Source: Escherichia coli (GTDB taxonomy: Bacteria > Pseudomonadota > Gammaproteobacteria > Enterobacterales > Enterobacteriaceae). From it: a stretch of 64,000 bases of DNA. The stretch lies in NCBI RefSeq assembly GCF_003019035.1, contig NZ_CP027447.1, one strand, 5' to 3'. Below the pieces are notes generated by a model. The model saw nothing but the letters and a program-made list of their open reading frames with translations, was not told the origin of the DNA and did no database searches. The position numbers and the translations under genes were made by a program. Shown piece after piece: positions 538-8,045 of the stretch. Numbering within the stretch: position 1 is the first letter of the stretch; each line of letters starts with the position of its first letter.

Positions 538-1638
538 ATGCAAAACTGGATAAAGGCCGCAGCGATCGCTGTAAGTCTGACGCTGCCCGGCGTGGCGCTG
601 GCGCAATCGCTGGAGTCGCTGGTCAACGTACAAGGTGTGCGTGAAAACCAACTGGTCGGCTACAGCCTGGTGGTCGGCCTTGACGGCACGGGTGATAAAA
701 ACCAGGTCAAATTTACCAACCAGACCATCACCAATATGTTGCGCCAGTTTGGCGTGCAACTGCCGAATAAAATCGACCCGAAAGTGAAAAACGTCGCCGC
801 GGTAGCGGTGAGCGCCACGCTGCCGCCGATGTACTCGCGCGGGCAGACCATCGATGTCACTGTTTCGTCGATTGGCGATGCTAAAAGTATTCGTGGCGGC
901 ACTTTGTTGCTGACCCAGTTGCACGGCGCGGATGGCGAAGTTTATGCGCTGGCGCAGGGCAGCGTGGTGGTGGGCGGGATGAATGCCACCGGGGCCAGCG
1001 GTTCGAGCGTAACGGTTAATACGCCAACCGCCGGGTTAATTCCTAACGGCGCAACGGTAGAGCGCGAGATCCCCAGCGATTTTCAGATGGGCGACACTAT
1101 CACCCTCAACCTGAAACGTCCGTCGTTTAAAGATGCCAACAATATTGCGGCGGCGATTAACGCCTCGTTTGGCGGCATTGCTACTGCGCAGAGCTCTACC
1201 AACGTCAGCGTGCGCGCGCCCACCAGCCCCGGCGCGCGGGTGGCATTTATGTCGCAACTGGATGATGTACAGGTGCAGGCAGAGAAAATCCGCGCCCGTG
1301 TGGTGTTTAACTCGCGTACCGGCACGGTGGTGATGGGCGATGGCGTTGCGCTGCACGCGGCGGCGGTGTCGCACGGCAGTTTGACCGTCTCGATTAACGA
1401 AACCAGCAACGTCAGCCAGCCGAATGCCTTTGCGAGTGGGCGCACGACGGTAACGCCGCAGAGCAATATCGCGGTGAATCATGCCCGTCCGGGCGTGGTG
1501 AGTTTGCCGGAGTCGAGCAGCCTGAAAACGCTGGTCAATGCGTTGAACAGTTTGGGCGCGACGCCGGACGACATTATGTCGATTTTACAGGCGCTGCATG
1601 AGGCGGGCGCGCTGGATGCCGACCTGGAGGTGATCTGA
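538..1638 (+). CDS. lfgI: Flagellar P-ring protein FlgI (lateral)
   Basis: ORF-track 523..1638; signal-peptide-like N-terminus ([16 protein letters not shown]); GGAGAG RBS 5 nt before ATG at 538, whereas ATG at 523 overlaps lfgH stop without RBS. Confidence 0.85.
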
Positions 1639-1937
1639 TGAAAGTGAACGCCAGCGGCGGGATTGATGGCAGCGATGCGTTAATGGGGCCGAAGGTTCAG
1701 GCCAATGATATTAAGCAGGCCGCGGAGCAGTTTGAGGCGATTTTTTTACGCAACATGCTGAAAGAGATGCGTAAAACCAACGAGTTGTTCGATTCGAAAG
1801 ATAACCCATTTAACAGCGATTCGGTGCGCATGATGCAGGGGTTTTATGACGATGAGTTGTGTAACACCCTGGCGCAGCAGCACGGGATTGGGATTGCGGC
1901 GATGATTGTGAAGCAGTTGTCGCCGAAGGGGAAATGA
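1638..1937 (+). CDS. lfgJ: FlgJ-like rod-binding protein, short form without muramidase domain
   Basis: 99-aa ORF, GGAGGTGA RBS, start overlaps lfgI stop; FlgJ N-domain-like sequence. Confidence 0.7.
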   Translation: MKVNASGGIDGSDALMGPKVQANDIKQAAEQFEAIFLRNMLKEMRKTNELFDSKDNPFNSDSVRMMQGFYDDELCNTLAQQHGIGIAAMIVKQLSPKGK

Positions 1938-1948
1938 GGGGCGCGCTT

Positions 1949-2060
1949 TGCCCCTCACCCTAACCCTCTCCCCAAAGGGGCGAGGGGACCGATTGAGCGC
2001 GGAGGTGAATATGGCGCAGGTTTTCGCCCTCTCCCTGTGGGAGAGGGCCGGGGTGAGGGC
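1949..2060. repeat. GC-rich nested palindromic intergenic element
   Basis: cccctcaccctaaccctctcccc (1951-1973) is mirrored by ccctctccctgtgggagagggccggggtgaggg (2027-2059); perfect hairpin ccctctccc-tgt-gggagaggg; lies between lfgJ stop and lfgK start. Confidence 0.45.
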
Positions 2061-2142
2061 ATCAGCGCGCACCATTATCCACTTAAGAATCCCCATCTTC
2101 ACGCCGCTTTTAACCGGCACGATTTACCGGTAAGGATCCAAC

Positions 2143-3519
2143 ATGGACATGATTAACATCGGCTACAGCGGCGCATCAACCGCGCAGGTAGAGCTGAACG
2201 TCACGGCGCAAAACACCGCCAACGCCATGACCACGGGCTACACCCGTCAGGTGGCGGAGATCAGCACCATCGGCGCCAGCGGTGGTTCGCCGAACAGCGC
2301 CGGTAACGGCGTGCAGGTCGACAGCATTCGCCGCGTCTCTAACCAGTATCAGGTGAATCAGGTGTGGTATGCCGCCAGCGATTACGGCTATTACAGCACC
2401 CAGCAGGGGTATCTCACGCAACTGGAAGCGGTACTGAGCGACGATAACAGCAGCCTGAGCGGCGGCTTCGATAACTTCTTCGCCGCCCTTAACGAAGCGA
2501 CCACCAGCCCCGATGATTCCGCCCTGCGCGAACAGGTGATCAGCGAAGCCGGGGCGCTGTCGTTGCGTATCGACAACACGCTGGATTACATCGACTCGCA
2601 AAGCACGGAAATCATCAGCCAGCAGCAGGCGATGGTGTCGCAAATCAACACGCTCACCAGCGGTATCGCCAGCTATAACCAGCAAATCGCCCAGGCTGAA
2701 GCCAACGGTGATAATGCCTCCGCGCTGTATGACGCCCGTGACCAGATGGTGGAAGAGCTTAGCGGGATGATGGATGTGCAGGTCAATATCGACGACCAGG
2801 GCAACTACAACGTCACCCTGAAAAACGGTCAGCCGCTGGTGAGCGGGCAACAAAGCTCGACCATCGCGCTGGAAACCAACGCCGACGGTACGCCGACCAT
2901 GTCGCTGACGTTCGCTGGCACCACCTCGACGATGACTACCGACACCGGCGGTTCATTAGGCGCACTGTTTGATTATCAAAACGACGTGCTGACGCCGCTG
3001 ACCGACACCATCAACAGCATGGCGTCGCAGTTTGCCGATGCGGTCAACAATCAACTGGTGCAGGGCTACGATCTCAACGGTAACCCCGGCGAGCCGCTGT
3101 TTATTTACGATGCCAGCAATGCCGATGGCCCGCTGACCGTTAACCCGGATATCACCGCCGATGAACTGGCGTTCTCCAGTTCGCCGGATGAAAGCGGCAA
3201 CAGCGACAACCTCCAGGCGCTGATCAATATCTCCACCGAACCGCTGGAGATAGCCAACCTTGGCAGCGTGACGGTCGGGCAGGCGTGCTCGTCAATCATC
3301 AGCAATATCGGCATTTACAGTCAGCAAAATCAGACGGAAGTCGATGCCGCGTCCAATGTCTATTCCGCAGCGCAAAACCAGCAGAGTAGCGTCAGCGGCG
3401 TCAGCATGGACGAAGAAGCGGTGAACCTGATCACCTATCAACAAATTTATGAAGCTAATCTGAAAGTCATTTCCGCCGGGGCCGAGATTTTCGATTCGGT
3501 GCTGGAAATGTGCAGCTAA
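2143..3519 (+). CDS. lfgK: Flagellar hook-associated protein 1 FlgK (lateral)
   Basis: 458-aa ORF; FlgK-like conserved N- and C-terminal helical ends (C-terminus ...EEAVNLITYQQIYEANLKVISAGAEIFDSVL). Confidence 0.85.
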   Translation: MDMINIGYSGASTAQVELNVTAQNTANAMTTGYTRQVAEISTIGASGGSPNSAGNGVQVDSIRRVSNQYQVNQVWYAASDYGYYSTQQGYLTQLEAVLSDDNSSLSGGFDNFFAALNEATTSPDDSALREQVISEAGALSLRIDNTLDYIDSQSTEIISQQQAMVSQINTLTSGIASYNQQIAQAEANGDNASALYDARDQMVEELSGMMDVQVNIDDQGNYNVTLKNGQPLVSGQQSSTIALETNADGTPTMSLTFAGTTSTMTTDTGGSLGALFDYQNDVLTPLTDTINSMASQFADAVNNQLVQGYDLNGNPGEPLFIYDASNADGPLTVNPDITADELAFSSSPDESGNSDNLQALINISTEPLEIANLGSVTVGQACSSIISNIGIYSQQNQTEVDAASNVYSAAQNQQSSVSGVSMDEEAVNLITYQQIYEANLKVISAGAEIFDSVLEMCS

Positions 3520-6654: not shown

Positions 6655-7089
6655 AAAGCACAGTCTTATACGTCCCTGAGAAGATGATTTTTCTGCGTGA
6701 TAATTAATATTTTATGGTAATAGGATTATTCTTAATCACTATATGGCGTGGAAATGTAACGAAATGACAGGACAGGTACAATAGCCAAATGTGTACTATT
6801 TGCAACGCAATGTAAATTTTGGCATCAGTACATTGAGAACAAAACGCGATAATTGATGACAATCTTAACTATATCAAGCATTTGATAAAGACATATTTTG
6901 ATACCTGGCCATGTGGCAGATATTGCTAATAATCTTTTTATCTGAATTTAAACTCTGCTTTTTTTTAGCTAAAAGTGGCATCGGATAATACGTGGCGAAA
7001 AAATTTTAACGGCGATTTTAAGTTTGCTCCTGAGGTGTCGTTTTTACAGGGTATCGAAACGAAAACGATTAATCCCAAGGAGCAGTATC

Positions 7090-8004
7090 ATGTTATCTAT
7101 TAACACCAATAACGCCTCAATGGCCGCCGTTAATGCAATCAGCAAAAGCAGCTCTTCTCTGTCTACATCTATGGAACGCCTGGCAACGGGTAACCGGATT
7201 AACTCTTCTGCCGATGACGCAGCGGGCAAACAAATTGCTAACCGTCTGACAGCACAGTCCAGCGGTATGGGTGTGGCGCTGAGCAACATCAATGATGCCA
7301 CCGCGATGCTGCAAACCGCCGACAGCATGTTCGACGAAATGTCTGATGTGCTGGGTCGTATGAAAGACCTGTCAACTCAGGCAGCGAACGGCACCTACAG
7401 CGACGACGATCTACAGGCGATGCAGGACGAATACGACGAACTGGGTCAGCAGATGTCTGACATGCTGCAAAACACCACTTACGGCGGCACCAACCTGTTC
7501 GGTGTTTCCGGTACCAGCAACACCGGTACTGACGGTCTGTTCCAGAGCGCAGTAACTTTCCAGGTGGGCGCGGAATCTTCCGACACCATGACCGTGAATA
7601 TTTCAAGCCAGCTGAATACCCTGGTGACGGATCTTTCTGCTATCAGCAACTCCTTCAGTGCGGATCAGGCTGACACCACTGGCACCGCAGGCGTTTCTGG
7701 CGGTACTGAGCTGACTGCGTCTGGCTCGGCTAACCAGATGATTACCAGCATTTCGACCGCGATGGATGATGTTTCGCAGATCCAATCCAAGCTGGGTGCG
7801 TCTATTAACCGTCTGAACGACACTGCCAACAACCTGACCAGCATGCAGGACAACACCGAAGTCGCTATCGGTAACATTATGGATACCGACTACGCGACGG
7901 AAGCGTCCAACATGACTAAACAGCAGGTGCTGATGCAGACCGGCATCACCATGCTGAAACAGTCCAACAGCATGTCCAGCATGGTTTCCAGCCTGCTGCA
8001 GTAA
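7090..8004 (+). CDS. lafA: Lateral flagellin
   Basis: ORF-track 7024..8004; ATG at 7090 preceded by AAGGAG RBS; flagellin N-terminus MLSINTNNASMAAVNAI and C-terminus ...MSSMVSSLLQ. Confidence 0.85.
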   Translation: MLSINTNNASMAAVNAISKSSSSLSTSMERLATGNRINSSADDAAGKQIANRLTAQSSGMGVALSNINDATAMLQTADSMFDEMSDVLGRMKDLSTQAANGTYSDDDLQAMQDEYDELGQQMSDMLQNTTYGGTNLFGVSGTSNTGTDGLFQSAVTFQVGAESSDTMTVNISSQLNTLVTDLSAISNSFSADQADTTGTAGVSGGTELTASGSANQMITSISTAMDDVSQIQSKLGASINRLNDTANNLTSMQDNTEVAIGNIMDTDYATEASNMTKQQVLMQTGITMLKQSNSMSSMVSSLLQ

Positions 8005-8014
8005 TGGCGGACTT

Positions 8015-8045
<31 letters not shown>

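What the first reader, a model, noticed from the sequence alone, without database searches (positions are those of the whole stretch)
1949..2060. GC-rich nested palindrome between lfgJ and lfgK
A roughly 110-bp element with terminal inverted arms and an internal perfect hairpin (ccctctccc-tgt-gggagaggg) separates the short lfgJ from lfgK. It could be a REP-like intergenic repeat, a terminator or attenuator inside the operon, or a small inserted element. The track ORF 1948..2133 within it is probably an artefact.
Basis: seen in the sequence. Interest (0 to 1): 0.3.

Follow-up and report, generated by a model that had tools for sequence, protein, structure and literature searches.

The report
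BoxC triplex-repeat pair between lfgJ and lfgK
The GC-rich palindrome between the two flagellar genes is an ordinary copy of BoxC, a known short repeat scattered through E. coli genomes; it sits in a small gap that other strains leave empty or fill with a different repeat.

Summary
Window 1940-2072 (about 130 bp, 68% G+C) lies between the lfgJ stop (1937) and lfgK (2143). It has inverted arms (1938-1972 / 2039-2073) and a perfect hairpin (2026-2035 / 2039-2048).

It is not specific to this locus. It is one "palindromic pair" of the E. coli BoxC repeat, also called PIT element or TMECO intrastrand-triplex motif. A type-A unit lies on the minus strand (1951-1986) and a type-B unit on the plus strand (2027-2060). 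Both are base-for-base identical to published MG1655 copies.

- **Spread:** similar sequence occurs in 5408 of 5426 complete E. coli genomes, at a median of 17 places each.
- **This junction in E. coli:** about 1275 genomes carry it. Only 27 hold the BoxC pair, about 1181 hold a REP pair (BIME), and a few hold an empty 76-bp gap or deletion scars. One has IS621 inserted in the REP.
- **Other genera:** Citrobacter, Phytobacter, Leminorella and Enterobacter Flag-2 loci have no repeat there. Pseudocitrobacter has the pair in either orientation.
- **Position:** the element ends 11 nt before a conserved sigma-28-like motif, TTAAG-N15-GCCG.
- **Excluded:** there is no terminator-like site, no Rfam match, and ORF 1948-2133 is an artefact.

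Verdict: a known repeat family of low interest.

The parts
1638..1937 (+). lfgJ (99 aa rod-binding protein). Context only: its stop codon TGA (1935-1937) lies 2-3 nt before the element.
   Evidence: ORF; Pfam PF10135 Rod-binding, E = 3e-14; annotated 'rod-binding protein' in the identical strain AR_0077.
1940..2072 (.). Composite BoxC / TMECO 'palindromic pair' of about 130 bp. Order: outer arm, type-A unit, 40-bp spacer, type-B unit, outer arm. The ends are uncertain by about 3 nt because GC-rich flanks overlap them.
   Evidence: Inverted arms. The whole composite is about 90% identical to copies at phnL-phnK and at a second Flag-2 intergenic site. The segment lies between the flanks of the 76-bp empty-site allele TGAGG|GCACC. 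G+C is 67.9%.
1941..1946 (.). Left outer arm core, GCGCGC. It pairs with 2065-2070.
   Evidence: Conserved at the ends of paralogous copies.
1951..1986 (-). BoxC/TMECO unit of type A with one mismatched triplet ('A mm'). On the minus strand it reads CCCTCGCCCC-TTT-GGGGAGAGGG-TTA-GGGTGAGGGG.
   Evidence: Matches the published consensus. Identical to MG1655 TMECO nos 7, 11 and 15 in Table 1 of PMC4666352.
1987..2026 (.). 40-bp spacer between the two units. It is conserved among composites at unrelated loci, so the pair is one repeat unit.
   Evidence: Alignment of paralogous copies; coordinates.
2027..2060 (+). BoxC/TMECO unit of type B: CCCTCTCCC-TGT-GGGAGAGGG-CCG-GGGTGAGGGC.
   Evidence: Identical to MG1655 TMECO nos 1 and 4.
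2065..2070 (.). Right outer arm core, GCGCGC.
2083..2110 (+). Sigma-28-like promoter candidate for lfgK, not part of the repeat: TTAAG (2083-2087), 15 nt, then GCCGCTTT (2103-2110). It starts 11 nt after the element ends.
   Evidence: TTAAG-N15-G[CT]CG is present upstream of lfgK in 27 of 29 Flag-2-type loci across genera, with a variable spacer. It is invariant in all E. coli alleles apart from spacer positions. A single match in the window is not significant on its own. The promoter function is inferred.
1948..2133 (+). Mechanical ORF (61 aa, TTG start) that reads through the repeat and the promoter region. It is an artefact.
   Evidence: No Pfam family. Not annotated in RefSeq genomes that carry the identical sequence. 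Most Flag-2 loci lack the DNA.
2143..3519 (+). lfgK (hook-associated protein 1 of the Flag-2 system); context only.

Best explanation
The segment at about 1940-2072 is one copy of the composite ('palindromic') form of BoxC, a known dispersed intergenic repeat of E. coli. BoxC is also called PIT element or TMECO intrastrand-triplex motif.

**Anatomy.** A type-A unit lies on the minus strand and a type-B unit on the plus strand. A conserved 40-bp spacer separates them and GCGCGC arms bracket them.

**Structures.** Each unit has three blocks: one C-rich block followed by two G-rich blocks. When single-stranded, the G-rich strand can fold back twice into an intrastrand triplex. The pair as a whole can form a long hairpin or cruciform.

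**Role here (inferred).** It is not a Flag-2 regulatory site. It is a repeat that entered, or was recombined into, the only permissive gap at this junction. That gap is the roughly 16 nt between the lfgJ stop codon and a conserved sigma-28-like lfgK promoter. It persists there as a neutral or mildly destabilising passenger.

**Shown.** Family identity, dispersal, presence/absence and orientation polymorphism at this site, and deletion scars.

**Inferred.** That it has no dedicated function here. That structure-prone DNA explains the turnover. That the downstream motif is the lfgK promoter.
For: **Family identity.**
- Both units match the published consensus CCCTCNCCC-N3-6-GGGNGAGGG-N3-GGGNGAGGG (consensus quoted).
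- They are identical to MG1655 Table 1 entries 7/11/15 (type A mm) and 1/4 (type B) of PMC4666352.
- That paper reports inverted pairs that always combine type A with type B, as seen here.

**Dispersal.**
- blastn finds matches in 5408 of 5426 E. coli genomes, with a median of 17 and a maximum of 33 places.
- The whole 135-bp composite, spacer included, is about 90% identical at phnL-phnK and at a second Flag-2 intergenic site.

**Not locus-specific.**
- Of about 1275 E. coli genomes with this junction, 27 carry the pair and about 1181 carry a BIME.
- XJ6.1 and PCN033 have a 76-bp repeat-free gap, TGAGG|GCACC.
- Flag-2 loci of Citrobacter, Phytobacter, Leminorella and Enterobacter have repeat-free gaps of 66-100 bp.

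**Turnover at this site.**
- E. whittamii keeps only a 23-nt left-end scar, with ACCC at both junctions of the deletion.
- Pseudocitrobacter vendiensis has the pair flipped relative to P. faecalis: 91.6% identity in reverse complement against 71.9% direct.
- This fits the reported association of TMECO sites with intergenic rearrangement.

**Against a signal role.** No terminator-like or sigma-70-like site and no Rfam family.
Against: - No experiment bears on this copy. A side effect on lfgJ mRNA 3'-end stability, on read-through into lfgK, or on the adjacent promoter cannot be excluded, given the very stable predicted RNA hairpin.
- The five BoxC-bearing Flag-2 alleles compared are nearly invariant within the element (4 variable columns in about 135), while the flanking genes differ by 3-5%. 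This could reflect constraint rather than recent spread.
- How the composite moves is unknown. No target-site duplication could be defined and no transposase is associated with it.
- A BIME and a BoxC pair sit between identical flanks at two loci. Passive drift does not obviously predict that.
Confidence: 0.85

Rival explanations
1. The pair acts as an RNA element inside the operon. As a long, stable 3' hairpin it would either attenuate read-through from lfgB-J into lfgK, or protect the lfgJ-proximal transcript from 3' exonucleases. REP and BIME elements do the latter.
For: - Very stable predicted RNA fold: -94.8 kcal/mol, z = -3.8.
- It starts 2-3 nt after the lfgJ stop and ends 11 nt before the putative lfgK promoter, so it sits at an operon joint.
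- The usual occupant of the same gap is a BIME. BIMEs are known from established work (Newbury et al. 1987; own knowledge) to stabilise upstream mRNA.
Against: - No T-run follows the stem and no terminator-like site was found.
- The element is absent from 98% of E. coli Flag-2 loci and from all Flag-2 loci outside Escherichia and Pseudocitrobacter.
- Empty-gap alleles exist.
- PIT elements showed no terminator or promoter activity and no effect on RNA polymerase, as summarised in PMC4666352.
Confidence: 0.12
2. The 130-bp composite is a non-autonomous mobile element, like a MITE or a REPIN. An unidentified enzyme would move it as a unit to hairpin-containing intergenic sites, including sites occupied by BIMEs.
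For: - The whole composite, spacer included, is conserved at unrelated loci.
- Filled and empty alleles exist at lfgJ-lfgK and at hrpB-mrcB.
- Both orientations occur at one site.
- A BIME is the alternative occupant between identical flanks at 2 of 4 loci examined.
- The K-12 hrpB-mrcB pair is a circular permutation of the composite, 98 of 112 identical across a dimer junction. That is compatible with tandem or circular intermediates.
Against: - No target-site duplication can be defined.
- No associated transposase is known.
- PMC4666352 found no association with transposons, phages or plasmids.
- Copy number per genome is low.
- The gap between the lfgJ stop and the promoter is only about 16 nt, so coincident boundaries can arise from selection alone.
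- Only four loci were examined.
Confidence: 0.2
3. ORF 1948-2133 encodes a real 61-aa protein.
For: An ORF with a TTG start exists, and a GAGG lies 8 nt upstream of it.
Against: - No Pfam match.
- No CDS is annotated there in the genomes listed with the identical sequence.
- The reading frame consists of repeat DNA plus the lfgK promoter region.
- Most Flag-2 loci lack the DNA.
Confidence: 0.01

Closest known systems
BoxC repeat = PIT (potential intrastrand triplex) element = TMECO triplex motif of E. coli (Bergler 1992; Bachellier 1999; Hoyne and Maher 2000/2002; Holder et al. 2015, PMC4666352)
   Same: - Both units match the three-block consensus.
- Loop types are TTA (A) and CCG (B).
- Both are identical in sequence to MG1655 copies.
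- The location is intergenic.
- The copy is an inverted A + B pair.
- Many copies occur per genome.
- The site varies between strains.

   Different: Nothing in kind. This copy sits at a locus (Flag-2 lfgJ-lfgK) that K-12 lacks. It has the antisense-left / sense-right arrangement, which by the Table 1 coordinates only 1 of the 5 MG1655 pairs shows (17+18).
REP / BIME (bacterial interspersed mosaic elements)
   Same: - A short, GC-rich, palindromic, dispersed intergenic repeat.
- Two unit types in alternating orientation, separated by two kinds of linker.
- A BIME occupies the very same gap in most strains, here and at phnL-phnK.
   Different: - No sequence similarity to REP consensus sequences.
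- The unit has three blocks (triplex-type) rather than a simple hairpin with GTAG.
- Roughly 17 matching places per genome rather than hundreds of copies.
- No RAYT-type transposase is linked to it.
- It is not a target for IS621, which inserted in the REP allele of strain GF47.
MITEs
   Same: Under 200 bp, terminal inverted repeats, non-coding, and filled versus empty sites.
   Different: No definable target-site duplication and no parent IS with matching ends. Circularly permuted copies exist.
Rho-independent terminators
   Same: A GC-rich stem located directly after a stop codon.
   Different: No U-tract, and the stem is far longer than in terminators. The scan found none.

Membership tests
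BoxC / PIT / TMECO | Three-block motif CCCTCNCCC-N3-6-GGGNGAGGG-N3-GGGNGAGGG | tested here: met
   Two exact matches, 1952-1986 (minus) and 2027-2059 (plus); 0 of 100 shuffles had any. The consensus is quoted from PMC4666352.
BoxC / PIT / TMECO | Second loop TTA (type A) or CCG (type B); sequence close to the K-12 copies | tested here: met
   Unit A equals Table 1 nos 7/11/15 (A mm) and unit B equals nos 1/4 (B), base for base.
BoxC / PIT / TMECO | Dispersed in many copies, always intergenic | tested here: met
   5408 of 5426 genomes, median 17 places. This copy lies between the lfgJ stop and the lfgK start.
BoxC / PIT / TMECO | Paired copies are inverted and combine type A with type B | tested here: met
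   A on the minus strand and B on the plus strand, 40 bp apart. The rule is stated.
BoxC / PIT / TMECO | The G-rich strand folds into an intrastrand triplex (CD, NMR, melting) | not testable with these tools
   PMC4666352 reports melting temperatures of 74 C (A mm) and 78 C (B) for oligonucleotides of these two types. It was not measured for this copy.
REP / BIME | Similarity to the y / z1 / z2 REP consensus with the GTAG/CTAC tetranucleotide | tested here: not met
   Three REP query sequences give no hit in 1938-2073, but do find a REP at 8014-8045. The BIME allele does not align with the element.
Intrinsic terminator | GC-rich stem-loop followed by a run of T | tested here: not met
   0 terminator-like sites in 1500-2400. 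The sequence after the stem is CATTATCCACTTAAG.
MITE | Terminal inverted repeats | tested here: met
   35-nt arms, 77% complementary.
MITE | Target-site duplication flanking the element | tested here: inconclusive
   Comparison with empty alleles gives no clear duplication. The ends overlap GC/GCGC in the flank.
MITE | A cognate transposase or parent IS with the same ends | not tested
   None is known. PMC4666352 found no link to mobile elements.
Any Rfam RNA family | Score at or above the family's gathering threshold | tested here: not met
   The best match scored 21 bits against a threshold of 94 (mir-2545), which is chance.

The most novel reading that the evidence does not exclude
BoxC pairs may not be passive debris. 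They may be a BIME-like mosaic system with its own, still unidentified, mobilisation or recombination mechanism, one that acts on the same intergenic gaps as BIMEs.

Four observations point that way:
- There are two unit types in alternating orientation, joined by two linker types.
- Circularly permuted copies exist.
- In-place flips occur.
- A BIME occupies identical flanks at lfgJ-lfgK and at phnL-phnK in other strains.
Probability: 0.15. Interest if true: 0.5.

Novelty: already known. Interest (0 to 1): 0.18.

Why it matters
It matters little for Flag-2 biology. The element is a passenger, and ORF 1948-2133 should not be annotated.

It is a clean worked example of how a tiny permissive gap, between a stop codon and a promoter, collects and exchanges different repeat families. 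Seven states of one junction were found:
- empty
- a BoxC pair in either orientation
- a BoxC deletion scar
- a BIME
- an expanded BIME array
- a BIME deletion scar
- a BIME carrying IS621

This supports the published link between triplex repeats and intergenic instability. The junction could serve as a strain-typing marker within Flag-2-positive E. coli.

If BoxC pairs and BIMEs truly share insertion sites, that would be a lead on the unknown mechanism by which BoxC spreads.

Tried and rejected
- **Rfam, permissive E-value:** only chance microRNA-like hits. Rejected.
- **Promoter and terminator scan:** nothing found, so the terminator and attenuator reading was dropped.
- **Pfam on the 61-aa ORF:** no match, so coding was rejected.
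- **REP identity:** rejected.
- **Other BoxC copies in the window:** none, whole or partial. The copy number therefore had to come from complete E. coli genomes.
- **Single-origin haplotype:** I asked whether BoxC-bearing Flag-2 alleles form one haplotype. They do not. Their flanks differ from each other as much as from BIME alleles, so origin by one event followed by vertical descent could not be shown.
- **Target-site duplication:** sought by comparing filled and empty alleles at two loci. Inconclusive.
- **Sigma-28-like motif elsewhere in the window:** only the lfgK site matched, and one match is not significant. Support for the promoter rests on cross-genus conservation alone. Upstream of the putative flagellin gene I saw no such motif by eye.
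- **Bachellier et al. 1997 (Genetics 145:551):** I recall that it mentions boxC insertions in BIME-containing regions. The paper is not held, so this remains an unverified recollection.
- **GGGGAGCG shared at phnL-phnK:** the left flank of the BoxC allele shares this 8-mer with the K-12 BIME linker at that site. I did not pursue it.

Full report
**1. The observation**

The window starts inside the E. coli Flag-2 (lateral flagella) cluster. lfgI ends at 1638, lfgJ is 1638-1937 (99 aa, Pfam Rod-binding) and lfgK is 2143-3519. The stretch 1600-2500 is 100% identical to E. coli AR_0077, where RefSeq annotates FlgI, 'rod-binding protein' and FlgK, with nothing between the last two.

- inverted arms 1938-1972 / 2039-2073 (35 nt, 77% complementary)
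- a perfect hairpin 2026-2035 / 2039-2048

It is far beyond chance:
- The hairpin pattern occurs in 0 of 100 shuffles.
- The RNA fold of 1935-2145 is -94.8 kcal/mol, z = -3.8.
- The DNA fold of 1938-2073 is -43.2 kcal/mol, z = -5.4.
- G+C is 68%, against 52% for the window.

**2. What it is**

A megablast of 1600-2500 against 5426 complete E. coli genomes gave matches in 5167 genomes, not only the roughly 1250 that carry Flag-2. The extra matches fell on the two halves of the palindrome, at unrelated loci such as deoB.

With blastn, the 176-bp region matches 5408 of 5426 genomes, at a median of 17 and up to 33 places each. It is therefore a dispersed repeat.

The literature search led to Holder et al. 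2015 (PMC4666352). That paper treats the E. coli repeat first named BoxC and later PIT element, and calls it TMECO. Its consensus is CCCTCNCCC-N3-6-GGGNGAGGG-N3-GGGNGAGGG. The consensus matches the window exactly twice, at 1952-1986 on the minus strand and 2027-2059 on the plus strand, and in no shuffle.

Comparison with the paper's Table 1 of 23 MG1655 copies:
- The minus-strand unit has second loop TTA and one mismatched triplet. It is identical to entries 7, 11 and 15 ('A mm').
- The plus-strand unit has loop CCG. It is identical to entries 1 and 4 ('B').

The paper also states that MG1655 has five closely spaced inverted pairs, and that each combines a type A with a type B. The window copy is such a pair.

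The 'internal perfect hairpin' is blocks one and two of unit B.

The pair is one repeat unit, not two independent insertions. The whole 135 bp, including the 40-bp spacer and the GCGCGC ends, is about 90% identical to copies between phnL and phnK. It is equally close to copies between a lysine-N-methylase-like gene and a glycosyltransferase elsewhere in Flag-2.

No Rfam family matches. Three REP query sequences find nothing in the element, though they do find a REP at 8014-8045.

**3. The junction in other Flag-2 loci**

About 1275 E. coli genomes carry this junction.

| State of the lfgJ-lfgK gap | Where found |
|---|---|
| BoxC pair, 96-100% identical | 27 E. coli genomes |
| Two inverted REPs (a BIME) between the same flanks | about 1181 genomes |
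| Expanded BIME array, 794-bp gap | Escherichia sp. MOD1-EC7003 |
| 76-bp repeat-free gap, TGAGG\|GCACCACCTCCCACTTAAG (empty site or precise loss) | XJ6.1, PCN033 and a few others |
| BIME deleted between two GGCGTTCGG direct repeats | E14 |
| IS621 inserted in the REP at ATCAGGCCT^AC | GF47 |
| Left 23 nt of the BoxC composite joined to the right flank, with ACCC at both junctions | E. whittamii |
| BoxC pair, same orientation as the window | Pseudocitrobacter faecalis |
| BoxC pair, flipped | P. vendiensis |
| Repeat-free gap of 66-100 bp | Citrobacter (several species), Phytobacter, Leminorella, Enterobacter |

Further details:
- The IS621 insertion point in GF47 is the natural IS621 target reported in PMC11208160.
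- The P. vendiensis copy is 91.6% identical to the P. faecalis copy in reverse complement, against 71.9% direct.
- The flanking genes of BoxC-bearing alleles differ from one another as much as from BIME alleles, so they are not one haplotype.
- Within the element, the five alleles compared differ at only four columns.

**4. Setting**

A motif TTAAG-N15-G[CT]CG lies at 2083-2106, 11 nt after the element's right end. It is present upstream of lfgK in 27 of 29 Flag-2-type loci across genera. The boxes are conserved and the spacer varies. In the E. coli alleles all variation falls in the spacer.

It resembles the FliA consensus TAAA-N15-GCCGATAA (own knowledge). Flag-2 encodes its own sigma-28, LafS, and anti-sigma, LfgM (PMC6993521). 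I infer that this is the lfgK promoter. One match in the window is not significant by itself, and no transcript data were available.

In the empty allele only about 16 nt separate the lfgJ stop from TTAAG. Any insertion that spares both the gene and the promoter must land there.

**5. How it most likely works**

*Shown in the literature for this family:*
- Oligonucleotides of types A mm and B form very stable triplex-type structures, with melting temperatures of 74 and 78 C.
- PIT elements block DNA polymerase in vitro.
- PIT elements show no promoter or terminator activity.
- TMECO loci are much more rearranged between strains than control intergenic regions.

*Shown here:* this junction displays that turnover, namely presence/absence, flipping, and a deletion scar with ACCC at both junctions.

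*Inferred:* the pair is a neutral or slightly destabilising passenger in a permissive gap, with no dedicated role in Flag-2. There is no T-run after the stem and no terminator-like site, so the terminator or attenuator reading is not supported. A side effect as a 3' RNA hairpin cannot be excluded.

ORF 1948-2133 is an artefact.

**6. Unexplained residue**

At lfgJ-lfgK and at phnL-phnK, a BIME and a BoxC pair sit between identical flanks in different strains. At hrpB-mrcB and at the second Flag-2 site, the alternative allele is simply empty.

The K-12 hrpB-mrcB pair (TMECO 1+2) is a circular permutation of the window's composite. It aligns across the junction of a head-to-tail dimer with 98 of 112 identical. 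BoxC therefore looks organised like a BIME, with two unit types in alternating orientation and two linker types.

With four loci this is only a lead. Selection on small permissive gaps may be enough to explain it.

**7. Verdict**

The 'terminator' reading is not supported, and the family is BoxC/PIT/TMECO rather than REP.

The kind of element, its pair architecture and its instability are all already published. Interest is low (0.18). The comparative series at this junction is a tidy illustration rather than a discovery.

Noticed in passing
window 2083-2110: A sigma-28-like motif, TTAAG-N15-GCCGCTTT, lies 34 nt upstream of the lfgK start. The same TTAAG-N15-G[CT]CG, with a variable spacer, is found in 27 of 29 Flag-2-type loci from Escherichia, Citrobacter, Phytobacter, Leminorella, Enterobacter and Mangrovibacter. 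It is probably the LafS-dependent lfgK promoter.
   Followed up: partly
L002-L004 (about 636-827); L019:707-1500: Most E. coli Flag-2 loci carry a BIME (two inverted REPs) in the lfgJ-lfgK gap in place of the BoxC pair. Escherichia sp. MOD1-EC7003 has a 794-bp array of REPs there.
   Followed up: partly
L005:150-1430: In E. coli GF47 an IS621 (IS110 family, bridge-RNA recombinase) sits in the REP of the lfgJ-lfgK BIME, at ATCAGGCCT^AC. That is the natural target reported for IS621.
   Followed up: yes
L027:1291-1500 and L028:1297-1500: Pseudocitrobacter faecalis and P. vendiensis carry the BoxC pair at the same junction but in opposite orientations (91.6% identical in reverse complement). This is either an in-place flip or two independent insertions.
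   Followed up: partly
L018:1416-1500; L066:141-216; L068:141-231: Short alleles of the junction. E. whittamii keeps a 23-nt BoxC left-end scar. E. coli XJ6.1 and PCN033 have a 76-bp repeat-free gap. E. coli E14 has a BIME-deletion scar between GGCGTTCGG direct repeats.
   Followed up: partly
L009:1501-1639 (E. coli 042), upstream of the window start: A second BoxC A+B composite lies inside Flag-2, between a lysine-N-methylase-like gene and a glycosyltransferase, in 737 genomes. Strain 884 has a 46-bp repeat-free gap there, with diverged flanks.
   Followed up: partly
L007:601-735 vs L069:201-310: At phnL-phnK, 546 E. coli genomes carry the BoxC pair, while K-12 and most others carry a BIME between identical flanks. 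The left flank of the BoxC allele shares GGGGAGCG with the K-12 BIME linker.
   Followed up: partly
L006:597-712 vs window 1941-2072: The K-12 hrpB-mrcB BoxC pair (TMECO 1+2) is a circular permutation of the window's composite, 98 of 112 identical across a dimer junction. LF82 has an empty site there.
   Followed up: partly
L027, L028 vs window 638-3519: The Flag-2 genes of Pseudocitrobacter are 91-94% identical in nucleotides to the window's. Those of Citrobacter are 82-84% identical. This suggests lateral transfer of Flag-2 between the Escherichia and Pseudocitrobacter lineages. PMC6993521 notes G+C deviations in both.
   Followed up: no
window 8014-8045; also 5745 (-) and 56822 (-): A canonical REP (32 of 32 match to a published REP query) lies just after the ORF 7024-8004, the putative lateral flagellin gene. 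REP-like cores occur at two further sites.
   Followed up: no
window 1638-1928 and 2093-2750 vs L002-L014: lfgJ and lfgK differ by 3-5% between E. coli strains, which is high for the species. The BoxC and BIME alleles are scattered across these haplotypes.
   Followed up: no
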